Part shown: positions 1 through 60,116 of the stretch, one piece after another
Position numbering within the stretch: position 1 is the stretch's first letter
How the letters are laid out: the number at the start of each line of letters is the position of its first letter
NCBI GenBank assembly: GCA_965263035.1
Contig: OZ253580.1
Coordinates: forward strand, 1,920,001 to 1,984,000
Source: Acidobacteriota bacterium
GTDB taxonomy: Bacteria > Acidobacteriota > UBA6911 > RPQK01 > JAJDTT01
Direction of reading: 5' to 3'
Length of the DNA: 64,000 bases
Translations under genes and position numbers: made by a program
Notes under the pieces: generated by a model
The model's database searches: none
Seen by the model: only the letters and a program-made list of their open reading frames with translations
What the model was told of the DNA's origin: nothing

Positions 1-954
1 GAAGTTGGTGACGATCAGGTCCAGGCGTCCGTCCCCGTCGTAATCGCCGAAGTCCACTCCCATTCCGGCTCGGGCATGACCATCCTCGTTGTAGGCGACG
101 CCGGCCAGGAAACCGACTTCCTGGAAGGTGCCATCCCCCTGGTTGTGAAAGAGGAAATCGGCCACGGTGTCGTTGGCCACGAACAGGTCCATCCAGCCGT
201 CGTGATCATAGTCGGCGAAAGCGACCCCCAGAGACTTGCCGCGCGCTCCTGCAATTCCGCTGACTTCGCTCACGTCGGAGAAGGTCCCGTCGCCGTTGTT
301 GCGGTAGAGGACATTGGGATCACCCTGGAAGGCGCTGGGATGGCAATAGGACCGAAAGCCCCCACCCGAGCAAGGAGGATTCACTGCGGTGTCGAACAGG
401 ACGTAGTTGCAGACGAAGAGATCCAGGAGGCCGTCCCGGTCAAAATCGAAAAATCCGGCGCTGGTGGCCCAGTGCCCCGGGTTCCGGACTCCTGCCGAAT
501 CGGTCCCGTCGACAAAGGTCCCGTCCCCGTTGTTGACCAGCAGGACGCTTCTCAGGTAGCCGGTGACGTACAGGTCCGGGTCGCCGTCGTTGTCGTAGTC
601 TCCCGCCGCCGCCCCCATGCCGAAGAGTCCCCTGAGATCGATCCTGGACCGGGCCGTGACCTCGGTGAAGGTTCCACCGCCGTCGTTTCGATACATCTGG
701 CTGTTGGGATCGGTAGCCGGTTTCGGCTCCGGCAGACTCGATCCGTTGACCAGGAAGATGTCCTGGTCGCCGTCCCGGTCATAGTCGAGAAAGGCGGCTC
801 CCGGTCCCGCGATCTCAGGAAAATAGAATTCACCGGCGGCCCCGTTGAAGTGCCGGAAACGAATCCCCGCCTCCGTCGTAATATCCGTGAATTGGACCGG
901 CGCCGCCGGCAGCCAGATCCAATGCAGCATCGCCGGCAGGGCGATCCGGGTCAA
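1..954 (-). CDS. CRTAC1/ASPIC-UnbV family FG-GAP repeat protein (N-terminal part; runs off the window)
   Basis: Manual minus-strand translation from TTG 954 (or ATG 930): ..PVQFTDITTEAGIRFRHFNGAAGEFYFPEIAGPGAAFLDYDRDGDQDIFLVNG.., with repeated DxDxDG motifs. The track ORF 76..1065(+) is its antisense shadow. Confidence 0.85.
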   Translation of the reverse strand, partial: MTRIALPAMLHWIWLPAAPVQFTDITTEAGIRFRHFNGAAGEFYFPEIAGPGAAFLDYDRDGDQDIFLVNGSSLPEPKPATDPNSQMYRNDGGGTFTEVTARSRIDLRGLFGMGAAAGDYDNDGDPDLYVTGYLRSVLLVNNGDGTFVDGTDSAGVRNPGHWATSAGFFDFDRDGLLDLFVCNYVLFDTAVNPPCSGGGFRSYCHPSAFQGDPNVLYRNNGDGTFSDVSEVSGIAGARGKSLGVAFADYDHDGWMDLFVANDTVADFLFHNQGDGTFQEVGFLAGVAYNEDGHARAGMGVDFGDYDGDGRLDLIVTNF

Positions 955-967
955 GAGCCGGATCGTC

Positions 968-2359
968 CTACTTCGATCCAAAGACGGAGAAGTCGTCGCC
1001 GACCCCTGCATAGATGTGGAATCTTTCCTTGCGCGAACGTTCCTGCTGCAGCTCCAGCCGCTTGAATTCCCGGAGCAGCCGTTGGGCCTCCGTCCGGCGT
1101 CCCAGTTTGGCGTTGACCTGCGCCGCCTTGTAGTGTGCGGAAATGTGATCTTCCTGCAAGATCAGGACCCGGCTCAGGAGACTCAGGCTACTCGCGTAGT
1201 CGCCCTCTTGAAAGCGGATGAGGGCCTGATAGTAGAGGGTCTCCACCCGGTCCGGCTCCCGCCGGCGAACCTGCTCGAAGTAGGGCTTGGCCTCGGTCTC
1301 GAGTCCCTGCTTGTAGAGGCTGACGCCCAGGTGGTGAGCCGCGTCGTTGGAATCCGGGTCCAAGCTCAACACCTTGCGGAGCTCGGCGGCGGCTTCGTCG
1401 AAGCGCCCCTGCATGCCGTAGGCAAGGGCCAGGTGAAGGTACCCCTGGGGATCCTGGGGACGCATCCGAATGGACTCCTGGAACGAGTCGATAGCCTGGT
1501 TGACCTTCCGCGCCAGACCGTAGCCGATCCCCATGGAGCTGACGATTTCGGGATCTCTCCCCTGGCGTTCCGCGGCTTCGCGGAGAATCGTGACGGCGCC
1601 CGAATAGCGGCCGCTGTCCAGCAGCATCAGCCCCAGGGCATGGAGTCCTTCCCCGTCAAGGGCAAACAGACGGCGCAACCGGCGGGTCGTTACCGCAGCC
1701 TCCGCCTCCCTACCCAACTTGAACTGGGTCTTGGCCAGATGCAGAAGCAGCTCCGGATCCTCAGGCGCCTGACCCAGCGCCCGGACGGTGTTCTCCAGGG
1801 CCGCTTCAATGTCTCCCACGTCGTAGAGCAAGCTGGCCAATCCCTTCAATGACGGGAGATGGACCGGGTTCCAATGGAGCACCCGCTCGAATTGGCGCCG
1901 GGCTTCCGGGAGATGATCGGTCTTGGCGTAGAGGCGGGCCAGGTTGCTTCGGGCGTCGATGAAATCATCGCGGAGGCTCACGGCCCGCTCGAAGTAGGCG
2001 ATGGACCGCTCCGCCTGTCCGCGCAGGTCGGCGATGATCCCGGCCACGTTCAATGCCTGGGGGATTTCCGGAAAATCGGCAAGAAGCCTTCGGATCTTCT
2101 CGTCGGCTCCGGCGTAGTCCCCCGACTCCAGCAAGGCGATGGCGCTCCCATAGAGTGCCTGCGCCTGAGCCCGATCCTGTCCCAGAAGCATGGACCCGGC
2201 ACCGGGCACGATAAAGAGAAGCGCCAGGAGCATTGGCGCAAAGCCACACCTGCCCGCAACGTGGGCATGGAAGCGATCGGTCTGGGACCTGGGATTCGGA
2301 ATCGGCCTGAAGCCTGAGTTTCGGAAACAGACGGCTGGGGAAGGAATAAAGTCTTTCAA
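968..2359 (-). CDS. Tetratricopeptide-repeat protein, probably secreted (true start may be downstream, near MLLALLFIV)
   Basis: Multiple TPR-like helices (ARSNLARLY, GYLHLALAYGMQGRFDEA, AHYKAAQV) and a hydrophobic signal-like segment. It lies between the TonB receptor and CRTAC1 genes. Confidence 0.85.
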   Translation of the reverse strand: MKDFIPSPAVCFRNSGFRPIPNPRSQTDRFHAHVAGRCGFAPMLLALLFIVPGAGSMLLGQDRAQAQALYGSAIALLESGDYAGADEKIRRLLADFPEIPQALNVAGIIADLRGQAERSIAYFERAVSLRDDFIDARSNLARLYAKTDHLPEARRQFERVLHWNPVHLPSLKGLASLLYDVGDIEAALENTVRALGQAPEDPELLLHLAKTQFKLGREAEAAVTTRRLRRLFALDGEGLHALGLMLLDSGRYSGAVTILREAAERQGRDPEIVSSMGIGYGLARKVNQAIDSFQESIRMRPQDPQGYLHLALAYGMQGRFDEAAAELRKVLSLDPDSNDAAHHLGVSLYKQGLETEAKPYFEQVRRREPDRVETLYYQALIRFQEGDYASSLSLLSRVLILQEDHISAHYKAAQVNAKLGRRTEAQRLLREFKRLELQQERSRKERFHIYAGVGDDFSVFGSK

Positions 2360-2448
2360 AAGGCTCTATCCCTTTTCACAGGCGGTCTTGTCGATCCGGA
2401 TCTATCGGATACGCGGGTGAGGGGACCGAGGCCCCTCACCCGCACCAT

Positions 2449-5400
2449 TCAGAATGAAAATCTCAGTCCAAACTGGAAGATCCGTCCGGGCAGGGCGCTC
2501 GAAACCACGCCGAAACTGGCTCGCTCCAGTCGACTTCCCGGTTTGCCGAAGTTCACGTTGTTGAAGAAATTGAAGGAGTCGAACCGAAGCTGGAACTTGG
2601 CCCGCTCGTTGAATTGAGGAACGTAGAAGTTCTTGGCCACGGAGAAATCGAAGTTGATGTAGCCGTCGGTATCCAGAAAATGGACGCCGCTGTTGCCGAA
2701 GGTGCCCAGCGCCGGCATCTGGAAACACTTGGCGCCGAACCATTGGTTGATGGCCCGCCCCCCGTTTCCGTCACAGGTGCGATCGGGCCGCTTGTTGGTG
2801 GCGATCTGCTCGGTGTTGGAAGGATCGAACGAGGTCGTGGGATGGAAGCCGAAACCGCTCTGCAGGCTGCCGATCCCCGAGAGCTGCCAGCCCCCGAACA
2901 GGTTCCGGGTGAAGGTGCTCATATCCTGCATCCTGGGCGTCTCGTAGATGAAACTGGTGACGAATCGTTGGCGCACGTCGAAGGTGCTGCGGCCCTTGTC
3001 CGGCTTGCCCGGCACATAGGCCCGGGACCCCTTGTTGTCGAAGGAATCCCAGTCCAGCGACTTGGAGTAGGTATAGGCCGCGGTGAAGCTCAAGCCGCCG
3101 CTCAACCGCTTGCGCAGGCTCGTCTCCAACCCGTGATAGTAGGCTTGGCCTTCGCCCTGGTCGGTCAGAATCCAGGCGTAGTTCTTGAAGGGCCGCTTGG
3201 TGATCCGGCACGCGCTCCCGCATTCCGGCTGCTGCGGATTGCGAAGGACGTTGATGTTGCGGCGCTTCGACATGTGAATGCCGTGGGAGCCGACGTAGGC
3301 GATCTCGGTGAACAGGTCGGAGCCCCAGGTCTTCTGCATGCTCAGCGTCCAGACCTGCTGGTAGGGATCCCGCCGCTGGGTCTCACTGTTCATGATGAAG
3401 AAGACGTTGGGACCCATGATGGAGGTCGGCTCGATAGCCGGCGGGTCCGGGAGTTGCCCCGTGGTGCTCAGGGTGGGCGACAGGAGGTCACTGATGTAAT
3501 TCTGCCCGACCCCGACACTGGGTCCGATGGAGTCCCAGCCTCGATCGTTGCCCGGCACGTCATCGTAGAAGACGCCGAAGCTGCTGCGGATGGCGAGATC
3601 GTCGCGCCCGCCCGGCGTCCAGGCAAAACCGATCCGCGGCGCGAAGTCATTGCCGTCGATGTCCACCAGTCTCGGCTTGTCCGGCGTGGCCTGGATCGTG
3701 CTTCCGTCACCCTCTTGAATGAAAAGCATGATGAGGTGGTCCTCGTCGGTTTCCCAGGGGTAGACCTGATACCTCATGCCCAGGGACAGAGTGAAGTTCT
3801 GAGCCAGCTTGATGTCATCCTGAATGAATCCGTTGTACCAGATGGCATGCTTCTTGACCGGGCTCTGGTAATTGACCCCGTCGATGCTGCTGGGATGCCC
3901 CAACAGAAAGTCGGCGAAATTGTGCCCGCTGAAATTGTTGTTGAAGGTGAACCTCCCGGCGTGGCCGCTCACGATGGCCAGATCCTGGCGCTTTCTCCGC
4001 ACCTCGGCGCCCAGCATGACCTGATGTTTGCCTTCGATCCAGTTCACGTTGACCAGGTAGTGCTGATCCTTCTGAACCGGTTCTTCGCAGTTGTTGCTCC
4101 AGGTTCCGAAGCCACCCACTCCGCCGATGCCCAGGGACAGGACGCGGTTGCACACGGGAACCGTGTTGATGTTCTTGACGCCGAAGACCTGACCCCAATC
4201 GGTCTCCGTGTCCTGGGACCGGCCGGCGGCGGAGAAATCCACCCGGTTGAGGCCTCCCTTGAGGTTGAGGGTCAGTGCGGGACCGAAGACGTGAACCCAA
4301 TCGATCACCATGTTGTCCGCGTGCAACGGGCGCGTCGAGTCCTCCCGAATGATTCGGTCCTCCAGCCGGTCCGACCGGCTGTAGGAATAGCGGCCGAAGA
4401 ACTTGTCGTTTTCGGAGGCCGCGTAGTCGAAGCGCACCAGCACCTTGTTTTCGTCCACGACAGTCAGCGTGGGGCCGATGTAGTTCAACGCTGCACCGGG
4501 ATGGGTGGGACCCGGAATGAATCCCCTTTCCATCCAGGTCTGAGCGAAACCGTCGATTCGAGAACTCGGGACCTGGTTGTTGTTGAAGGGGTTTCCGGTC
4601 ATGGGGTCGACCAGTTGGGTGTCGGGGAGGAGGTCGGAGAAGTCTCCGTTCAGCCATCCGGCATGGGGAACGCTCCCTCTCCCGGTTCCGGACTCCCGGC
4701 CGCGGATCCCCTCGTAGCTTCCGTACCAGAACAACTTGTCGGAGAGAATCGGGCCACCCACCTCGAAACCGTACTGGTTGCGCAGAATCTCCGGGCTGCC
4801 GACGTCGAAGAAATTGCGGGCGTTGGTGTTGTCGTTCTGGTGCGCCTCCCAGAGCGTGCCGTGAACTTCGTTGGTGCCCGATTTGGTCACCACGTTGATG
4901 ACGGCGGCGTTGTCGTAGTTGCCGGCAAAATAGCCCTTCTGGACCTTGAACTCCCGTAACGTCTCCACCGCCGGGATCGTGGCCACCAGACCGATGTAGA
5001 ACTCCTTGCTGGGAATGCCGTCGAAGAGGACGTTGGTCGACACGTGCCTCTGCCCAGAAATGGCCACCTGCAGGTTGCTCCGGTTGGCGTAGGACGAACC
5101 GAACTCGCCGGTGGGCAGCTCGGGCGTCACTCCGGCGGTGATGCTGGCCAGGGTCATGAAGTTCTTCTCACCCGAGGGGAGCTCGAGAATCTCGGTCTCT
5201 CCGACCACTTCACCCAGTGAGGGCTCCTCCGACTCGACGACGTTGCGGGACGCCTGCACCGTCACCTGCTCTGCGATCGCGCCCACGTCGAGGGCCACAT
5301 CCCGTCTCACGACGCTGTCGACCCGGACCTCGATCCCACTGATCACCGTGGTCTTGAAACCGGGCAAGGAGGCCGTGAGATCGTAGATGCCGGGGGGAAG

Positions 5401-25620: not shown

Positions 25621-26002
25621 AGACCACAGAGGGACATAAGGAGAAGGGGACAGTTACTTTCTCTACGAGTTTGTGGGGACTCCACCCAGGGAGCGGACTC
25701 GGAGCCGGCGCCCGAGCGAGTACAATTTCAACAGCGGATGAGATTCAAAGCGATCCTCAAACGCAGATGTCCACGATGTTTGCGTGGGCAGGTTTTCGCC
25801 TCGGCATTTCGTATGAGGCGGAACTGCGGTGTCTGCGACCTGAGATTCGAACGTCACGAACCAGGGTACTTTGTGGGTGCACTCTACTTCGCCTACGGAT
25901 TGGCGGTGCTGTTGGGCACTCCTCCTGCTGCCTATCTCTGGTGGCAGGGATTTTCGATAGAGGTTAACGCGCTTGTGATCACGGGAGAACTGATTATTTT
26001 AT

Positions 26003-26140
26003 GGGGCTTATATACCTAAGTGCCATTGGCATACAGTTCTGGCACCACGCTTTCCCCAACGAGATACGTTCCGGTGCCCAGGGCAAGAACCCCAGCCCTG
26101 AGAATGTTCAGGGCGGCATTGTGGTCCCTGTCCATTCCAA
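26003..26140 (-). ncRNA. Putative TnpB omega-RNA scaffold overlapping the tnpB 3' end (boundaries approximate)
   Basis: A near-identical nucleotide block is shared with 57160-57216, and a stem (26041-46/26073-78) co-varies between the two copies. Its position matches known TnpB guide-RNA loci. Confidence 0.55.
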
Positions 26141-27191
26141 GTCCGCAGGCCCTGCACCGGAAGGTTTCGCTCCGTCCTGGATCGTGGCGGGCGCCGCACC
26201 GGTGGCAGTCCTGCGATGTATATGCGGGATTCACTTCTACGAACTTCCGACCGGCCCATTCTGCCTTGTACTGGAGTTGATTCCGCAGAAGCCCCCATGA
26301 TTGCGTCATTATTTCTCGATTCAGCCCCTTCTTCTTCGAGCCCTTCGTCACCATCCCTTGGATGTTCAGTTTCTCCACAGCGATCAGACCGTGCTCACGA
26401 ATGATCCTGGTGGAGAGACGATGGCAGGCATTACGGTTTCGGACCGATTCCCGGTGACGGAGCCGAGATAGCTGTACGATCCGTTTCCGTCTGGTCTTGG
26501 AAATCTTCTTGCACCTGGAGACCTTTCTCTGCTGCTTTCGGATCTCCCCCCAGTCCCGTCGATTCCGTTCGATCCTCTCACCCGTGGACAGCACCGCTCG
26601 CTTGCGGACTCCCAGGTCGATCCCCACCGAAGACTCGCATTTCGGTAGCGGCGGCTTCTCCACCTCGTAGGTCAGGTCCACATACACCCGGTTCGGCTTG
26701 CGGACAATCCGCAACGCTTTCAACGGGCATCCGTCCGGCAACGGCCGGGAGGGAAATATCCGGATCGTCGGAAAGCCCTTGGGCCGGATGGCGTAGCCCC
26801 GAGCGCGCTTCTTCACCAGGGTCGCTTTGGGGTCGACGACGTCGATGGTCTCCATCCTCGCAATGGGCCGGAATCGAGGATACCCCGGCTTCTCCCCCGC
26901 CTTGCAGCGACGGAAGAACGCCTTGAAGGCCCGGTCCAACCGAACCAGCATCCCCCGCTCCGCCTTGACCGCCACTGACCCGAGCCCCTCCGGATCCTCC
27001 TTCCTTTTGGAGGTCAACCCCTTCATCTGATCGTACAGGGTCACGCCGCGTTGCTCGGATTCCCAGGCCGTCCTGTGTTCCTCCAGTGCAGCGTTGTACA
27101 GCCGATTCAGGATGGACCTCACCCCGTCCAACCGCCGGATTCCACCCTTGGACAGCTTGGCTCTGCACTGGATAGTTGCGTGGCCTTTCAT
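26016..27191 (-). CDS. tnpB: RNA-guided endonuclease TnpB
   Basis: RLYNAAL, KPGYPRF, RuvC motifs GIDLG / IAVEKL / DRDHNAALNI, YTSQDC and zinc finger CHRC..CRAC. Confidence 0.95.
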   Translation of the reverse strand: MKGHATIQCRAKLSKGGIRRLDGVRSILNRLYNAALEEHRTAWESEQRGVTLYDQMKGLTSKRKEDPEGLGSVAVKAERGMLVRLDRAFKAFFRRCKAGEKPGYPRFRPIARMETIDVVDPKATLVKKRARGYAIRPKGFPTIRIFPSRPLPDGCPLKALRIVRKPNRVYVDLTYEVEKPPLPKCESSVGIDLGVRKRAVLSTGERIERNRRDWGEIRKQQRKVSRCKKISKTRRKRIVQLSRLRHRESVRNRNACHRLSTRIIREHGLIAVEKLNIQGMVTKGSKKKGLNREIMTQSWGLLRNQLQYKAEWAGRKFVEVNPAYTSQDCHRCGARHDPGRSETFRCRACGLGMDRDHNAALNILRAGVLALGTGTYLVGESVVPELYANGT

Positions 27192-27484
27192 GGTAGGAAT
27201 TGTAAACCATCAGCCTGAATTCTCGGCACTTAGGCATATAATCCCCTATTTTATCTCCCTGGATCTTTCAGTACTCTCGAATCCTGTTCCTGCACTTGGA
27301 CCAGCTATTCGATCCCACCTAACTCGGGTGCGCTACTCAAGCTGCCCTACCAAGCTAGCCACGTCGCGGTAGCCCACAGACTCCCATCCACACGGGAGAA
27401 GGGGACAGTTACCTTCTCTACTTGGTGCAGATTGGTGCAGATTTGGTTTTAAAGGCAGCTTGGAGTCATGGCACGTTGTTTCAA

Positions 27485-55597: not shown

Positions 55598-57055
55598 CTA
55601 CGTCCCCGATTCCGGCCCCACCGGAGCCCAGCGGAAGCACCCGTACTGCGACTCGTAAAGATTGTAGTCTCCGGTACTTCGAGCGATCTCCCACATGCCC
55701 GCGGCCATCTCCCGGCACAGCGGCCCGCGGCTCCCGGCCAGGTTGTGCAGCTCGTGTGGGTCCCGCTCCAAGTCGTAGATCTCGTCTTCATCGAAGGCGT
55801 TGAAGACGTACTTGTGCCGCCCACGCCAGAGGACCCTCTGAGTGTAGGCCATCCGCTGTCCCTGCATCTCGGCGTAGGCTTGTGAATCCCAGCCGGAGCC
55901 GTCTCCCCCCAACAGCGGACGCAGCGAACGGCCGTGGCAGGAAAAGCCCTCTCCCAGCATCAGCTCCATCAGGGTCGGAGCCACGTCCAGCAGGCTGACG
56001 ATCCCGGGGGCCTCCTGCCCCGGTCTCACCCCCGGACCCTTCAGGATCAAAGGCACACGATACGCTTCCTCGAAGGCGGGGACCCCCTTGAGCATCAGGC
56101 GATGGGCGCCCATGTAGTCGCCGTGGTCCGAAAGAAACAGGACCAGCGTATTCTCCGACTGCCCCGTCTCCTCCAAGACCCTCAAGACCCGTCCGACCTG
56201 GTCGTCGATGAGGGAGCAGAAGGCGTAGTAGCAGGCGGTGGCCTCGGCGAAGTCGGACCATTGCATCTGGTCCCAGACCCGTTGCATCCGCCGGTAGATG
56301 CCGGGCCGATGGGCCAGATCATCCTGGAAACTGGGGGGAGGCGCCAGGGCGCGGGCGTCGTAGAGACGCCGGTACTCCCGCGGTACGACGTACGGATCGT
56401 GGGGTCCGACGGTACTCAGGAAGAGGCACCAGGGCTGCTCCTGCCGGGCCGACCCGGTCAGAAAGTCGATCCCGCGAGAGTAGACGTAGTGCTCGCCGGT
56501 GCCCTCCACCGGCTCGTCCACGACGCCGTGCAATAGCAGGTCCCGATACCCGCGGTGGCGAACCATGCCCCTCCGCTCCCAGCGGCGGTCCGATTCGGGA
56601 AGACCCAGACTCCGGCGTCGCTCCAGGTAACCGGTGTTGGGGACCCTCCGGCACCCCACTTCGGCCGCCTCGAAGCTCTCCATCAGCTCATAGGAATCGA
56701 ACCCGAACTGCTCCAGCCGGTTCGAGCGCTCGATGTGCCATTTTCCGAAGTAGCCGGTGCGATACCCGGCCTCCCGCAGCCGCCGGCTCCAGAACGGAAG
56801 CCCCGCCTTCAGATCGGCGCGATAGGGCTCCACCGTATGGGTGCAGTCGACCATGCCGTGGCTGTGGGGCAGGAGCCCCGTCATCAAGCTGGCCCGGCTG
56901 GGCGAGCAGATGGGGTTAGTGGAGTAGCAGCGCAGGAAACGGGTCCCCCGGGCGGCCAGATGGTCCAGGTTGGGGGTCCGGCAGGGAGAGGCAGGACCCA
57001 CCGTGTCGGCACGCTGCTGATCGGTCATCAGCACCAGCAGATTGGGTCGGGGCAA
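55598..57055 (-). CDS. Sulfatase
   Basis: TTG 57055 with AGGAGG RBS; PNLLVLMTDQQR, CSPSRAS, GKWH and SDHGD. Confidence 0.92.
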   Translation of the reverse strand: MPRPNLLVLMTDQQRADTVGPASPCRTPNLDHLAARGTRFLRCYSTNPICSPSRASLMTGLLPHSHGMVDCTHTVEPYRADLKAGLPFWSRRLREAGYRTGYFGKWHIERSNRLEQFGFDSYELMESFEAAEVGCRRVPNTGYLERRRSLGLPESDRRWERRGMVRHRGYRDLLLHGVVDEPVEGTGEHYVYSRGIDFLTGSARQEQPWCLFLSTVGPHDPYVVPREYRRLYDARALAPPPSFQDDLAHRPGIYRRMQRVWDQMQWSDFAEATACYYAFCSLIDDQVGRVLRVLEETGQSENTLVLFLSDHGDYMGAHRLMLKGVPAFEEAYRVPLILKGPGVRPGQEAPGIVSLLDVAPTLMELMLGEGFSCHGRSLRPLLGGDGSGWDSQAYAEMQGQRMAYTQRVLWRGRHKYVFNAFDEDEIYDLERDPHELHNLAGSRGPLCREMAAGMWEIARSTGDYNLYESQYGCFRWAPVGPESGT

Positions 57056-57081
57056 GCGTCCTCCTGTTGCGCAAGCTACCT

Positions 57082-58324
57082 GGGGCTTATATATCTGACT
57101 TGACGTCAGCACACCGTTCCGGCGCCACGTTCGGCCCGCTGGCCCACGTTTCGGCACCCAGGGCAAGAACCCCCGCCCTGAGAATGTTCAGGGCGGCATT
57201 GTGGTCCCTGTCCATTCTGAGATCACAGGCTGAGCAGTGATACGTCTCGCTCCTTCCCGGTCGATTCCGGGCGCCACAACGGTGACAGTCCTGCGATGTG
57301 TATTGTGGGTTGACTTCCACGAACCCCCGACCGGCCCACTCTGCCTTGTACTGGAGTTGATTCCGCAGCAGCCCCCATTGCTGTGAGAGCATCTCTCGAT
57401 TCAGGCCCTTCCGCTTCAGGCCCTTCGTCGACATCCCCTTGATGTCCAACTTCTCCACCGCAATCAGTCCGTTCTTGCGGATGATCGCAGTGGTCTGCCG
57501 GTGACAGGCGTTCCGGTTGCGGACACCCTCCCGGTAACGCATTCCCGCCAACCGGCGGACTCTCTTCTTCCTCCGGTTGGACCCCCGCCGGCATCGGGCA
57601 ATCCTCCTCTGTTGCCGCCGGATCTCCGGCCAGTCCCGAGTGTTGCGTTCGATTCGTTCCCCGGTGGACAAAACCGCCCGCTTGCGGACACCCAAGTCGA
57701 TTCCGACCGCCGAGGCACACTTCGGCAGCGGCTGCTTCTCGACTTCATAGGTCAGATCCACATACACCCGATTCGCCTTGCGCACGATCCTCAATGCTTT
57801 CAGTTCACCCTCGGGCAAGGGTCGGGTGGGGAACATCCGAATCGTCGGAAAGCCCTTGGGACGGATGGCGAATCCCCGGGCCCGCTTCTTCACCATCGTC
57901 GTCTTGGGATCGACGATATCAATGGTCTCCATCCTGGAGATCGGTCGGAACCGGGGATACCCAGGATCCTCTCCCGCCTTGCAGCGCCGGAAAAAGGCCT
58001 GGAAGGCTCGTTCCAGGCGAAACAACATCCCCCTTTCGGCCTTGACGGCAATGGCCCCGAGCCCGGTCGGATCGTTTCTCCTCTGCTGCGTCAAACCCCG
58101 CAACTGGTCATACAGAGTCACGGATTTCTCTTCCTTCTCCCAGGCGTCCTTTCGCTCCTCCAGGGCGGAGTTGTAGAGGCGGTTCAAAACCGATCGGATC
58201 CAATCCAGACGCCGAAGCCCAGCCTTGGACATCTTGGCTCGGCACTGAAATATTGTATGATACGTCAATACAGGTATGTTAACACATCTTAGTGACAATC
58301 TATCAAGTTAGATATTTAAGCCCC
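57082..58324 (-). mobile_element. TIR-bounded, TnpB-only element, copy 2 (1243 bp)
   Basis: TIRs GGGGCTTATATATCTGACTTGA and GGGGCTTAAATATCTAACTTGA (20/22). No clean 8-bp TSD. Confidence 0.88.
57087..58298 (-). CDS. tnpB: RNA-guided endonuclease TnpB (start uncertain, possibly TTG 58268)
   Basis: GIDLG / IAVEKL / DRDHNAALNI and CHRC..CSAC; close paralogue of 26016..27191. Confidence 0.95.
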   Translation of the reverse strand: MSLRCVNIPVLTYHTIFQCRAKMSKAGLRRLDWIRSVLNRLYNSALEERKDAWEKEEKSVTLYDQLRGLTQQRRNDPTGLGAIAVKAERGMLFRLERAFQAFFRRCKAGEDPGYPRFRPISRMETIDIVDPKTTMVKKRARGFAIRPKGFPTIRMFPTRPLPEGELKALRIVRKANRVYVDLTYEVEKQPLPKCASAVGIDLGVRKRAVLSTGERIERNTRDWPEIRRQQRRIARCRRGSNRRKKRVRRLAGMRYREGVRNRNACHRQTTAIIRKNGLIAVEKLDIKGMSTKGLKRKGLNREMLSQQWGLLRNQLQYKAEWAGRGFVEVNPQYTSQDCHRCGARNRPGRSETYHCSACDLRMDRDHNAALNILRAGVLALGAETWASGPNVAPERCADVKSDI

Positions 58325-58475
58325 TACCACACTATTTAATTGGGCTGTCCCTGTGTTCCAGCCCTCGACCCAGTCTACCAAGCCTCGACCTTCGGCTTGG
58401 CATTCGGTAGAAAAGTCCTGTCCGAGCGTCCCCTTTTGGGATCGTGAATTCCTTTCGCTTTCGTGAGGAGGCAGA

Positions 58476-60116
58476 TTGTCAAGAGGCAAAAAACAGGCCG
58501 CCGCGCTCTTGCTGGCCCTTCTGGCGGGCATCGCTGTGGGTGGGACCCTGCAGAAATCAGGCTATCTGATGCTTCCGGGCTGGCAGACGCCAGCCCGGAC
58601 AGGTTTCGAAGCCACCCCAGGCATCTCGGTGCAGGCCGCCGTTCCACAGGTGGTGGAGGAGGCTACGCTCTTCGCCTTCGACAACGTCTCGATTCCTTTT
58701 CACCGGAACCTGTACCTCTGGAAGCATCCCCGGAACCCCGTCATCAGCCGGGAGGAGGGTCGGCCGGATGAAGCCCGGGCTCAATATCTGGGAACCGTGC
58801 TGCGTCACGAAGGCCGATTCAGAATGTGGTACGTGGCTGCCGACAGGGAGAGCTTCCGTGCCTTCAGCACGCAGGATCTCATGACCGGCTGGAGGGTGGC
58901 GTATGCGGAGAGCGAGGATGGCGTCCACTGGAGAAAACCCAACTTGGGCCTGGTCGAATACGCCGGAAATCGCGACAACAACCTGGTTCTGGTGGACCCG
59001 CCCGAGTTGAGCGTGATCGCGGGGCTGACCATCCTCTACGAACCGGAGGACCCGGATCCCTCCCGGCGATTCAAGATGATGGCCGCCGCCCCTGCCGAGA
59101 GGACGAAGACCACGGCGGTTCCGCTTTACAGCGGCGACGGCCTGCGCTGGCGGCCGGCCAGGGAGACGAAGCTGATCCGGAAACGCGAGGGGAAGTGGCT
59201 CGCCTGGAGGGTGCCGGAGGAAAATCTCGCGATTCCCGAGTTCCTGGAACATGCCGGGCTCTACAAATGGGATGGAATGTACTACATCGCCGGGCAGCAG
59301 GTCGCTCCCTGGGTGTGGCTGTGGGACGGCAAGCCCTCCGGTCGAGTGATGTCCATCTTCCGGTCATCGGATTTCGTCGAATGGTCGGATACGAAGTCCC
59401 TGTCGTTCGTACGCTACGGCTACCGCTCGATGCCGACCAATGCGGGGGAAGAGTCTCACGAGCCCGCCAGCGTCTGGAATCGCGGCAATGTGCTGCTGGG
59501 GACCTACGGACAGTTTCACGGTGTTCCCGGGTCGCCGTCCCATCCCATGGATCTGGGTCTGCTCATCAGCAACGACGGCATCCATTTCCGGGAGCCGGTT
59601 CCCGATTTCATTTTCCTGCCTCGGGGAGAACCACAGAGTTGGGAAGGTGGAGGACTGCTCCAGGGGCAGGGATTCGAGAATGTGGGGGACGAGACCTACA
59701 TCTGGTATGGCGGTTGGGACAACGACGTCACCCGGCCCGATACCTACGGGGAGATCGGATTGGCGCGCTGGCGCAGAGATGGCTTCGGGTCCTTGTCAGT
59801 CAAGAATCCGGAGCTTCCGGCGGCGTTCGTCACCAGTCCCATCCAGGCCCGGGGAGCGGTCACGATTCAACTCAACGCGGAGGGACTCTCGGACCGGGCC
59901 TGGTTGCGGGTCGAGCTTCTGGATCGGGGAGAGCGGCCGCTTCCGGGATATTCGGGCAGTGACTCTGCGGCCGTCTACAAATCGGGTTTGAGGGAGTCGG
60001 TCTCCTGGAAGGACAAGCAGAGGATCCCGGGACTCTCGAGTGGGTTCAAGATCCGGGTCAACTTCGAAGGGGAGAGACAGGACATCAGACTCTACGCCCT
60101 CTACGTCGGCGGGTGA
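58476..60116 (+). CDS. Glycoside-hydrolase-like beta-propeller protein
   Basis: FRMWY, YAESEDGVHWRKPNLG, SNDGIHF and WRRDGF; same broad family as 53432..54871. Confidence 0.72.
   Translation: MSRGKKQAAALLLALLAGIAVGGTLQKSGYLMLPGWQTPARTGFEATPGISVQAAVPQVVEEATLFAFDNVSIPFHRNLYLWKHPRNPVISREEGRPDEARAQYLGTVLRHEGRFRMWYVAADRESFRAFSTQDLMTGWRVAYAESEDGVHWRKPNLGLVEYAGNRDNNLVLVDPPELSVIAGLTILYEPEDPDPSRRFKMMAAAPAERTKTTAVPLYSGDGLRWRPARETKLIRKREGKWLAWRVPEENLAIPEFLEHAGLYKWDGMYYIAGQQVAPWVWLWDGKPSGRVMSIFRSSDFVEWSDTKSLSFVRYGYRSMPTNAGEESHEPASVWNRGNVLLGTYGQFHGVPGSPSHPMDLGLLISNDGIHFREPVPDFIFLPRGEPQSWEGGGLLQGQGFENVGDETYIWYGGWDNDVTRPDTYGEIGLARWRRDGFGSLSVKNPELPAAFVTSPIQARGAVTIQLNAEGLSDRAWLRVELLDRGERPLPGYSGSDSAAVYKSGLRESVSWKDKQRIPGLSSGFKIRVNFEGERQDIRLYALYVGG

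What the first reader, a model, noticed from the sequence alone, without database searches (positions are those of the whole stretch)
57082..58324. A second diverged TIR-TnpB element with co-varying TIRs shows a family, not an accident
Seen: it has the same size (1243 vs 1244 bp) and layout, with the tnpB stop codon inside the TIR in both copies. The outer TIR (GGGGCTTA.AT) is shared. The inner TIR differs between elements (..CCTAAGTGCC vs ..TCTGACTTGA) yet matches within each element. Inference: the paired ends are under selection for transposase recognition, possibly by different partner transposases. The flanks here (AGCTACCT / TACCACAC) are not an 8-bp TSD, so this copy may be older or rearranged. 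It sits ~26 bp upstream of the sulfatase start and may alter its expression.
Basis: partly seen in the sequence, partly recalled or inferred. Interest (0 to 1): 0.75.

Follow-up and report, generated by a model that had tools for sequence, protein, structure and literature searches.

The report
TnpB cargo in IS1595-type transposon shell
This is an old, slightly damaged copy of a small jumping element that carries an RNA-guided nuclease gene (tnpB) between the inverted ends of an IS1595-type cut-and-paste transposon and probably borrows a transposase from other elements in the genome; the kind is known, but its insertion sites hint at how nuclease and borrowed transposase fit together.

Summary
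Window 57082-58324 is a 1243-bp element with 22-nt terminal inverted repeats (20/22). It holds one gene, tnpB, whose stop codon lies inside the repeat.

It belongs to a family. I collected 27 distinct TnpB-TIR elements in six subfamilies from this genome and four congeners. 21 of 27 have perfect 8-bp A/T-rich target duplications.

The same genome holds autonomous IS1595-family (DDE) elements with the same outer repeat and 8-bp duplications. One of them matches the sister subfamily's end at 24/26. So these are transposase-less TnpB cassettes in an IS1595 shell, probably moved in trans.

The inner repeat co-varies within elements (10.2/13 against 5.8/13 between subfamilies).

The 3' 210 nt fold into conserved hairpins with compensatory changes, and RNA contigs hint at an abundant RNA of about 280 nt.

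This copy is old. One congener shares it and four have the empty site; only TACC is duplicated. No autonomous partner was found for its repeat subtype.

New here: the flank on the tnpB 5' side is G|A in 20/21 insertions, against 10/36 autonomous ends. This may be a TAM.

DDE-borne TnpBs are published. The scan has noted IS1595-shell TnpBs before on other DNA.

The parts
57082..58324 (-). Whole non-autonomous element (subfamily T2), 1243 bp, carrying tnpB in an IS1595-type shell
   Evidence: It is 92-94% identical to three other copies in the genome and one in G006.
57082..57103 (.). Terminal inverted repeat at the tnpB 3' end (right end in tnpB sense). It contains the tnpB stop codon and the last bases of the predicted guide-RNA scaffold.
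   Evidence: I1, 22 nt, 91%
58303..58324 (.). Terminal inverted repeat at the tnpB 5' end (left end in tnpB sense)
57087..58298 (-). tnpB open frame (403 aa from TTG at 58298). A TTG at 58268-58266 aligns with the M-K-x-H start of sister subfamilies, so the likely product is 393 aa.
   Evidence: Pfam PF01385 and PF07282. NCBIfam guided_TnpB, 202.8 bits against a cut-off of 100. ISDra2 TnpB structures, E 1.6e-28. D180/E261/D344 are invariant in alignment A1. dN/dS is 0.15-0.22 against its nearest copies.
57082..57360 (-). Predicted omega-RNA (reRNA) scaffold overlapping the tnpB 3' end
   Evidence: Conserved hairpins: 13 of 46 pairs carry compensatory changes, 95.5% of cells are paired, and 0 of 500 shuffles reach this. 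RNA contigs confined to 57106-57360 carry a much higher word depth than contigs over the rest of tnpB, and contigs of two studies end at 57360 (a hint only).
57062..57081 (-). Predicted guide portion of the RNA (flank next to the right end). It overlaps the sulfatase ribosome-binding region.
   Evidence: Inference from TnpB biology. Conservation among near-identical copies ends at the repeat.
57077..57081 (.). Left junction: TACC (duplicated) plus one extra T not present in empty sites
   Evidence: The empty allele in G005 reads AAGCTACCACAC.
58325..58328 (.). Right junction: second copy of TACC
55598..57055 (-). Sulfatase gene directly downstream of tnpB on the same strand. Its start is TTG at 57055-57053, 26 nt from the element end.
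   Evidence: Pfam Sulfatase, 1.3e-47. The start was placed by the orthologues' ATG.
26003..27246 (-). Sister element (subfamily T1), 1244 bp, with the 8-bp duplication TATTTTAT at 25995-26002 and 27247-27254. It is 100% identical to a second copy in the genome.

Best explanation
The element is a transposase-less cassette. It consists of a tnpB gene with its overlapping guide-RNA (omega/reRNA) module, enclosed by the terminal inverted repeats of an IS1595-family (DDE) insertion sequence.

**Shown**
- The repeats and the single tnpB gene.
- A family of such cassettes with 8-bp A/T-rich target duplications.
- Autonomous IS1595 elements with the same ends in the same genome.
- Purifying selection on tnpB.
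- A conserved RNA structure at its 3' end.

**Inferred**
- IS1595 transposases encoded elsewhere bind both repeats and move the cassette in trans. This is why the two ends of each subfamily change together.
- The right-hand repeat is also the end of the guide-RNA scaffold and the last codons of tnpB, so it is under three constraints at once.
- The RNA runs on into the flank, which serves as guide, so TnpB can cut the matching site that lacks the element.

**This copy**
- It is old. It was inserted before G000 and G007 split.
- Its junction is non-canonical: 4 bp duplicated plus 1 extra base.
- It is 93-94% identical to its sisters.
- No cognate autonomous element was found, so it is probably no longer moving.
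- Its tnpB frame is still open and under purifying selection.
For: **Architecture.**

**Family and duplications.**
- 18 of 22 repeat pairs in G000 have 8-bp duplications.
- 21 of 27 distinct TnpB-TIR elements have perfect 8-bp duplications.

**IS1595 link.**
- The 1762-bp elements encode PF12762 DDE_Tnp_IS1595 (4.4e-38) and PF12760.
- G000 has 17 PF12762 matches.
- 18 autonomous copies in G000, G007 and relatives have perfect 8-bp duplications.
- The repeat of the 1762-bp element against the left end of the G007 T1 form is 24/26.
- The two T1 copies in G000 are 100% identical, and G007 has about a dozen at 97-99%.
- An IS1595-family member is reported to make A/T-rich 8-bp direct repeats (PMC12561309; abstract and passages read).

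**No transposase in cis.** tblastn with the IS1595 transposase found none in 168 TnpB loci with up to 2.5 kb of flank.

**Co-variation of the ends.**

**RNA module.**
- Structure and compensatory changes.
- dS is lower in the last 60 codons in 7 of 9 comparisons.
- RNA contigs.

**Age of this copy.**
Against: - Trans-mobilisation was not tested.
- No autonomous element with this copy's inner repeat (ATCTRACTTGA) was found in 15 genomes of the family. A pattern search with up to 2 mismatches hit only TnpB cassettes and solo remnants.
- G005 has 6 cassettes (5 near full length and 1 fragment) but only one broken IS1595 transposase match.
- This copy itself lacks the 8-bp duplication.
- The RNA evidence comes from contigs only. 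The tool warns that contig depth cannot rank parts of a gene, and no raw reads were available.
- No Rfam family matched.
Confidence: 0.85

Rival explanations
1. It is an ordinary IS200/IS605-type (IS1341-group) TnpB-only element. A Y1 TnpA would move it by single-strand peel-and-paste, and the inverted repeats would be incidental.
For: The protein scores best against IS200-type TnpB models (NF038281, 153 bits, below its cut-off). G000 has two weak, partial Y1_Tnp matches (36-39 bits).
Against: - That family has neither terminal inverted repeats nor target duplications (PMC13565253, passages read).
- These cassettes have 22-26-nt repeats, and 21 of 27 have 8-bp duplications.
- The ends match IS1595 elements.
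- The Y1 matches are partial and far from any cassette.
- Of 127 more distant TnpB loci scanned, one has repeats with a duplication and one further element, fetched twice, has repeats without one. The architecture is therefore specific to this clade.
Confidence: 0.03
2. It is a chance nesting. An IS605-type tnpB element once landed inside an IS1595-derived miniature element, and the two are not a functional unit.
For: This may well be how the family began. IS1595 elements here do carry foreign ORFs: an Mrr_cat-like ORF sits in the 1762-bp element.
Against: - Six subfamilies only 70-76% identical in DNA all keep the same layout, with the tnpB stop inside the repeat and about 40-65 nt of leader.
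- No IS605-type ends lie between the repeat and the gene.
- The unit as a whole has fresh duplications and 100% identical copies.
Confidence: 0.05
3. It is a domesticated copy. TnpB would act here as an RNA-guided regulator of the adjacent sulfatase rather than as part of a mobile element, in the manner of TldR.
For: - The copy is old and fixed in two species.
- It sits 26 nt upstream of the sulfatase, on the same strand.
- The predicted guide overlaps the sulfatase ribosome-binding site.
- tnpB is still under purifying selection.
Against: - The D-E-D residues are intact.
- The orthologous copy in G007 is largely deleted, so the locus does not need it.
- dN/dS against mobile sisters may simply reflect selection before insertion.
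Confidence: 0.04

Closest known systems
DDE-transposase-associated TnpB branches (DDE-1 to DDE-6) and solo TnpBs between the same ends (Altae-Tran et al. 2023, PNAS, PMC10691335; passages read)
   Same: - TnpB sits between inverted terminal repeats.
- The tnpB 3' end lies within 250 bp of the transposon end (5 nt here).
- Solo TnpBs are proposed to be moved in trans.
   Different: - The text I could read names IS630. A 2026 review lists ISL2, IS630 and IS1031 (PMC13565253).
- IS1595 occurs 0 times in the main text of the PNAS paper.
- No member here has the transposase in cis (0 of 168 loci).
IS1595 family insertion sequences (Pfam DDE_Tnp_IS1595; ISApl4, PMC12561309)
   Same: - Short terminal inverted repeats.
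- A/T-rich 8-bp target duplications.
- The outer repeat is shared with autonomous copies in the same genome.
- A tendency to carry passenger ORFs.
   Different: - There is no transposase gene; the cargo is tnpB plus its RNA.
- The match to the ISNwi1-group end consensus is recalled from ISfinder and was not tested.
IS200/IS605 family, IS1341 group (TnpB-only elements)
   Same: - One tnpB gene in about 1.2-1.3 kb.
- The guide RNA overlaps the 3' end and reaches the element end.
   Different: That family has subterminal hairpins, no inverted repeats, no duplications, and inserts 3' of a fixed 4-5-nt motif.
IS607 TnpB ISXfa1 (Yoon et al. 2023, NAR, PMC10711439; passages and figure legends read)
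   Same: - A G-rich motif 5' of the target: GGG is depleted for ISXfa1, and (G)GG lies 5' of the duplication here.
- A fixed first base after the right end, which in ISXfa1 is part of the RNA scaffold. Here that base is A in 21/21.
   Different: - The transposase is a serine recombinase there and a DDE enzyme here.
- The resemblance rests on flank statistics only.
Fanzor nucleases in eukaryotic cut-and-paste transposons (Bao and Jurka 2013, PMC3627910, search listing only; Yoon et al. 2023)
   Same: A TnpB-type nuclease and its RNA are embedded in a transposon with inverted repeats and duplications, with the repeat inside the RNA.
   Different: These are eukaryotic or viral hosts, the proteins are larger, and the transposase is often in cis.

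Membership tests
TnpB (RNA-guided endonuclease) | OrfB_IS605 and TNB/zinc-ribbon domains above the curated cut-offs | tested here: met
   PF01385 scores 51.9 bits (cut-off 30.5) and PF07282 scores 86.1 bits (cut-off 26.3). NF040570 scores 202.8 bits (cut-off 100). ISDra2 TnpB structures match at E 1.6e-28 over residues 20-362.
TnpB (RNA-guided endonuclease) | RuvC D-E-D catalytic residues present | tested here: met
   D180, E261 and D344 are invariant in six proteins at 46-80% identity. Their assignment to the triad rests on the motifs GIDxG, AVE and DRDxNAA, which is recalled knowledge.
TnpB (RNA-guided endonuclease) | Structured guide RNA overlapping the 3' end of the gene and running into the flank | tested here: inconclusive
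   The structure and compensatory changes are met. The RNA ends and the guide are only hinted at by contigs.
TnpB (RNA-guided endonuclease) | TAM-dependent RNA-guided DNA cleavage | not testable with these tools
   Only a flank motif is available: G|A in 20/21.
IS200/IS605 (IS1341 group) | No terminal inverted repeats; subterminal hairpin ends | tested here: not met
   22-nt inverted repeats at the very ends, present in all six subfamilies.
IS200/IS605 (IS1341 group) | No target site duplication | tested here: not met
   21 of 27 family members have perfect 8-bp duplications.
IS200/IS605 (IS1341 group) | A Y1 (HUH) TnpA available | tested here: inconclusive
   G000 has two partial PF01797 matches of 36-39 bits, not near any cassette.
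IS1595 family (as a non-autonomous derivative) | Ends shared with elements that encode DDE_Tnp_IS1595 | tested here: met
   The outer 11 nt are shared by all. The T1 left end against the 1762-bp element is 24/26 (G007 form). For T2 only the outer part matches.
IS1595 family (as a non-autonomous derivative) | 8-bp A/T-rich target duplication | tested here: met
   Met for the family: 21/27, and the three other T2 copies in G000. It is NOT met for this copy, which has TACC plus T.
IS1595 family (as a non-autonomous derivative) | Encodes its own DDE transposase | tested here: not met
   tnpB is the only long ORF with a family match. No IS1595 transposase lies within 2.5 kb in 168 loci.
IS1595 family (as a non-autonomous derivative) | Moved by an IS1595 transposase | not testable with these tools
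   Inferred from the ends, the duplications and the identical copies.
DDE-associated TnpB branches of Altae-Tran 2023 | Inverted terminal repeats around tnpB, with the tnpB 3' end within 250 bp of the end | tested here: met
   The stop codon lies 5 nt from the end.
DDE-associated TnpB branches of Altae-Tran 2023 | Falls in one of the branches DDE-1 to DDE-6 of their tree | not testable with these tools

The most novel reading that the evidence does not exclude
The insertion sites carry the nuclease's signature as well as the transposase's.

**The pattern.** In tnpB orientation the base just 5' of the left duplication is G in 20/21 insertions, and the one before it is G in 13/21. The first duplicated base, which is therefore also the first base after the right end, is A in 21/21. 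Autonomous IS1595 elements from the same genomes show G|A at only 10 of 36 ends. The right side of the cassettes shows it at 5 of 21.

**The reading.** (G)GG is the TAM of this TnpB. The A is a fixed right-flanking base that belongs to the RNA scaffold. It is predicted to pair with a conserved U, and the one copy with G there keeps a wobble pair. This matches what was shown for the IS607 TnpB ISXfa1.

**What would follow.** A TnpB-RNA module with an IS607-like TAM logic has been grafted onto a DDE transposon. Either only insertions that happen to place a TAM next to the left end persist, or orientation is chosen accordingly. That would be the first sequence-level evidence that TnpB gives a retention benefit to a cut-and-paste DDE element in bacteria.
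Probability: 0.4. Interest if true: 0.75.

Novelty: new variant of a known kind. Interest (0 to 1): 0.55.

Why it matters
TnpB is the ancestor of Cas12. Its known role is to restore IS200/IS605 and IS607 elements after scarless excision. Why it should ride in DDE cut-and-paste transposons, which leave a break anyway, is an open point raised in a 2026 review (PMC13565253).

This genus offers a compact natural system for that question. In one genome it has:
- autonomous IS1595 elements;
- their TnpB-carrying passengers in several subfamilies with matched ends;
- empty and filled alleles;
- RNA data;
- an orientation-specific flank motif that makes a TAM prediction directly testable.

It also shows one 22-nt stretch serving at the same time as transposase site, RNA scaffold end and coding sequence.

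Tried and rejected
- **Rfam.** The search over 56900-58500 at E up to 1 gave only a chance IRES hit.
- **Metagenome scan.** The scan with alignment A1 returned only relatives of 25-43% identity. It added no further TIR cassettes. The generic TIR/duplication scan of 127 distant loci added one candidate (L053) and one element with repeats but no duplication (L067, fetched again as L131).
- **Partner for the T2 repeat.**
  - The solo repeat at genome 2001919-2001940 lies beside an unrelated transposase.
  - The hits in G001, G010 and G012 are solo remnants.
  - A further IS1595 element at genome 4587135-4589125 shares only A(T/C)CTGAC in register.
  - The IS1595 genes of G004 showed no clear repeats with my finder.
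- **Supplements.** Whether IS1595 is among its DDE branches stays open.
- **Read-through into the sulfatase.** No RNA contig bridged the G000 junction by 31 nt on both sides. Stretches without cover (58358-58411 in all four runs) say nothing.
- **tnpB promoter.** The consensus scan found no promoter on the minus strand.
- **Recombination between two copies as the cause of the missing duplication.** No other copy carries the complementary flanks.
- **The two 2-event scenarios for the junction.** One is GTGT to A at the right end; the other is loss of GCT at the left end plus T to A. I could not tell them apart.
Full report
**1. The observation**

The region 57082-58324 is bounded by a 22-nt inverted repeat, arms 57082-57103 and 58303-58324, with 20 of 22 bases complementary. 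It holds one long minus-strand frame, 57087-58298.
- The frame matches Pfam OrfB_IS605 (1.1e-13) and Cas12f1-like_TNB (1.8e-24).
- It matches NCBIfam guided_TnpB at 202.8 bits against a cut-off of 100.
- It matches the solved ISDra2 TnpB at E 1.6e-28.

The stop codon (57087-57089) lies inside the repeat. The second element in the window, 26003-27246, is 1244 bp. Its layout is the same, its stop is also inside the repeat, and it has the 8-bp duplication TATTTTAT on both sides. The outer 11 nt of the repeats are shared and the inner parts differ between the two elements. That start is TTG at 57055-57053 behind AGGAGG, and it is ATG at the same place in G001 and G004.

**2. It is a family with the hallmarks of a DDE transposon**

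The window's genome (6.2 Mb, one contig) has 14 matches to the element. A scan for paired repeats found 22 pairs, 18 of them with identical 8-bp flanks.

Copies of this subtype (T2):
- genome 1886862-1888089
- genome 2600571-2601949, which carries an internal insertion
- genome 1410204-1410852, a 649-bp internal-deletion derivative

Each has its own 8-bp duplication.

Adding loci from congeners, I collected 27 distinct TnpB-TIR elements in six subfamilies. DNA identity is 70-76% between most subfamilies (84% for the closest pair) and 92-100% within them. 21 of 27 have perfect 8-bp duplications, and three more differ at one base.

The two T1 copies in G000 are 100% identical. tnpB is under purifying selection: dN/dS is 0.13-0.25 in nine comparisons, and 0.15-0.22 for the window copy against its nearest relatives. 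D180, E261 and D344 are invariant.

**3. The shell is IS1595**

The same repeat scan turned up elements of 1762, 1512, 1627 and 1531 bp. They have the same outer repeat, GGGGATTATAT, and 8-bp duplications.
- The ORF of the 1762-bp element matches DDE_Tnp_IS1595 (4.4e-38) and its zinc ribbon.
- G000 has 17 matches to that Pfam family.
- Seven 1762/1763-bp copies are intact.

The 26-nt repeat of the 1762-bp element is 24/26 identical to the left end of the T1 cassettes of G007, and 22/26 identical to those of G000. G007 has four transposase copies 99% identical to the G000 one and about a dozen T1 cassettes at 97-99%.

An IS1595-family member is reported to make A/T-rich 8-bp direct repeats (PMC12561309; abstract and passages read). 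No IS1595 transposase lies within 2.5 kb of tnpB in any of 168 fetched loci. The cassettes are therefore non-autonomous.

An IS200/IS605 reading fails on two defining features. That family has no inverted repeats and no duplications (PMC13565253). G000 has only two partial, weak Y1 matches, elsewhere in the genome.

**4. Co-varying ends**

Over the inner 13 nt of the repeats, the left and right ends of the same element agree at 10.2/13 on average (8 representatives). A left end of one subfamily agrees with a right end of another at 5.8/13 (52 pairs). The outer 11 nt stay at 9.1/11 across subfamilies.

This is what one expects if one transposase must bind both ends. The right end carries extra load. 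It holds the last tnpB codons and, as shown next, the end of a structured RNA.

For the T2 subtype I found no autonomous element with the same inner repeat. A pattern search with up to 2 mismatches in 15 genomes of the family hit only T2 cassettes and solo remnants. A further IS1595 element shares only a 7-nt stretch in register. "Different partner transposases" is therefore plausible but shown for T1 only.

**5. The RNA module**

The last 210 nt of 12 distinct elements were aligned (A2). RNAalifold predicts 46 pairs in 7 helices.
- 95.5% of cells are paired, against 89.7% in shuffles.
- 13 pairs carry compensatory changes, against 5.8 in shuffles.
- 0 of 500 shuffles reach any of the five measures.
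- Sliding the partners by 1-3 columns drops pairing to 31-48%.

Three hairpins (columns 116-137, 138-143/170-175 and 147-169) are 99-100% paired with whole-stem swaps. They lie in the poorly conserved C-terminal tail of the protein. Synonymous divergence is lower in the last 60 codons in 7 of 9 comparisons. A long-range helix joins the zinc-finger coding stretch to the last bases of the repeat and the first flanking base. It rests mostly on invariant columns.

Four metatranscriptome runs from two studies hold related contigs.
- In X19 and X20, contigs confined to 57106-57360 have word depths of 428-4378. Contigs over the rest of tnpB have 14-114.
- Complete contigs of X17, X19 and X20 all end at 57360, while low-depth contigs run across that point.
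- The tool warns that contig depth cannot rank parts of a gene.

I take this as a hint of an abundant RNA of about 280 nt from the tnpB 3' end. Rfam has no match.

**6. This copy**

G007 carries, at the same junctions, a remnant with 450 nt of the right part and 17 nt of the left repeat. G005 has the empty site AAGCTACCACAC. G002, G003 and G006 have AAGCTAACACAC.

The filled site reads AAGC-TACC-T-[element]-TACC-ACAC. Only 4 bp are duplicated and one T is extra. In tnpB sense that extra base is an A directly after the right end. Two scenarios of two events each would derive this from a canonical 8-bp duplication, and I cannot tell them apart.

The insertion predates the split of G000 and G007. 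The copy is 93-94% identical to its sisters. tnpB, its RNA and the sulfatase lie on the same strand. The predicted guide (57062-57081) overlaps the sulfatase ribosome-binding region, and the native upstream region is displaced by 1.24 kb. Whether expression changes was not testable.

**7. An orientation-specific flank motif**

I oriented the 21 insertions with perfect duplications by tnpB.
- The base 5' of the left duplication is G in 20 (A in 1).
- The base before it is G in 13.
- The first duplicated base is A in 21.
- The second is A or T in 21.
- The third is A in 15.

On the other side of the cassette the corresponding dinucleotide is G|A in only 5 of 21. Among 18 autonomous IS1595 insertions from G000, G007 and relatives it is G|A at 10 of 36 ends. 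Fisher tests give 4e-7 and 3e-6.

Further cases agree:
- The 649-bp derivative fits (GG|AAACCCAA).
- So does a cassette on an RNA contig (GGG|AAAAGTTG, loose end at 58324).
- The A after the right end is also present in the three copies whose flanks share no duplication, including this one.
- The one copy with G there has A in its left duplication.

Autonomous elements have symmetric ends, so a transposase preference should not know the orientation of tnpB. The only consistently asymmetric feature of all six subfamilies is the TnpB-RNA module.

For the IS607 TnpB ISXfa1, a GGG motif was depleted in TAM assays, and the first base after the right end is part of the RNA scaffold (PMC10711439; passages and figure legend read). 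My reading, at about 40%, is that (G)GG is the TAM here and the A a scaffold base. An unrecognised asymmetry of the transpososome is the main alternative. The insertions come from five related genomes, but their duplications and flanks differ, so they are separate events.

**8. Distribution**

Record titles of close relatives name Acidobacteriota MAGs. Two of the laid RNA runs are labelled sponge metagenome and hold contigs 99% alike.
- At E of 1e-90 or better, the protein was found in 2 of 401 sampled genomes of the phylum, both in this genus.
- Within the genus it was not found in G001-G003.
- The nearest outside relative (45% identity, a SAR202 MAG, L053) has different 17-nt repeats and a 7-bp duplication.

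**9. What is known**

Altae-Tran et al. 2023 describe six TnpB branches associated with DDE transposases, all with inverted terminal repeats. They also describe solo TnpBs between the same ends, presumably moved in trans (PMC10691335; passages read). IS630 is the family named there. A 2026 review lists ISL2, IS630 and IS1031 (PMC13565253).

Four full-text searches found no paper that links TnpB to IS1595 ends: TnpB + IS1595; TnpB + TIR + TSD + DDE; IS1595 + RNA-guided; and TnpB + non-autonomous + DDE transposase + in trans.

Earlier notes of this scan describe TnpB cassettes with IS1595-type ends in an archaeon, a phage and other genomes. I did not test them. They suggest the architecture recurs widely.

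**10. Verdict**

The kind, TnpB as cargo of a DDE transposon, is published. The IS1595 shell with a partner identified in the same genome, the triple-duty right repeat and the TAM-like flank signature are additions. Novelty: new variant of a known kind. Interest: 0.55.

Noticed in passing
genome 1740263-1742024 and six further copies (outside the window): The 1762-bp autonomous IS1595 element carries a 146-aa ORF behind its transposase. The ORF matches the restriction-endonuclease-fold families NA-iREase1 (5.6e-08) and Mrr_cat (1.1e-06). It is a passenger ORF inside the repeats.
   Followed up: partly
window 58226-58261, + strand: Two promoter-like sites overlap the start of tnpB just inside the left repeat. 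They point outward towards the 546-aa ORF at 58476-60116, which has no Pfam match. This is a consensus scan only.
   Followed up: no
L053:2393-3774 (SAR202 MAG contig): The nearest TnpB outside the genus (45% identity) also sits between perfect inverted repeats, but these are 17 nt long and of a different sequence, with a 7-bp duplication. It may be a second DDE shell for the same TnpB clade.
   Followed up: no
genome 1410204-1410852 (outside the window): A 649-bp internal-deletion derivative of the T2 cassette keeps both repeats, the first 380 nt and the last 275 nt (the predicted RNA module), and has its own 8-bp duplication. It is a miniature element that still carries the guide-RNA region.
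   Followed up: partly
G005 (congener): G005 has six TnpB matches of subfamily T5 (five near full length, one fragment) but only one IS1595 transposase match, which is partial and has a stop codon. These cassettes may have outlived their partner.
   Followed up: partly
genome 972968-979730 (outside the window): A cluster of IS1595 elements of three repeat subtypes lying side by side within 6.8 kb. The third of them is interrupted by another transposase gene.
   Followed up: no
L067 and L131 (Rhodoblastus MAG and a metagenome contig): A TnpB at 34% identity lies between 22-nt inverted repeats (21/22) with no duplication.
   Followed up: no
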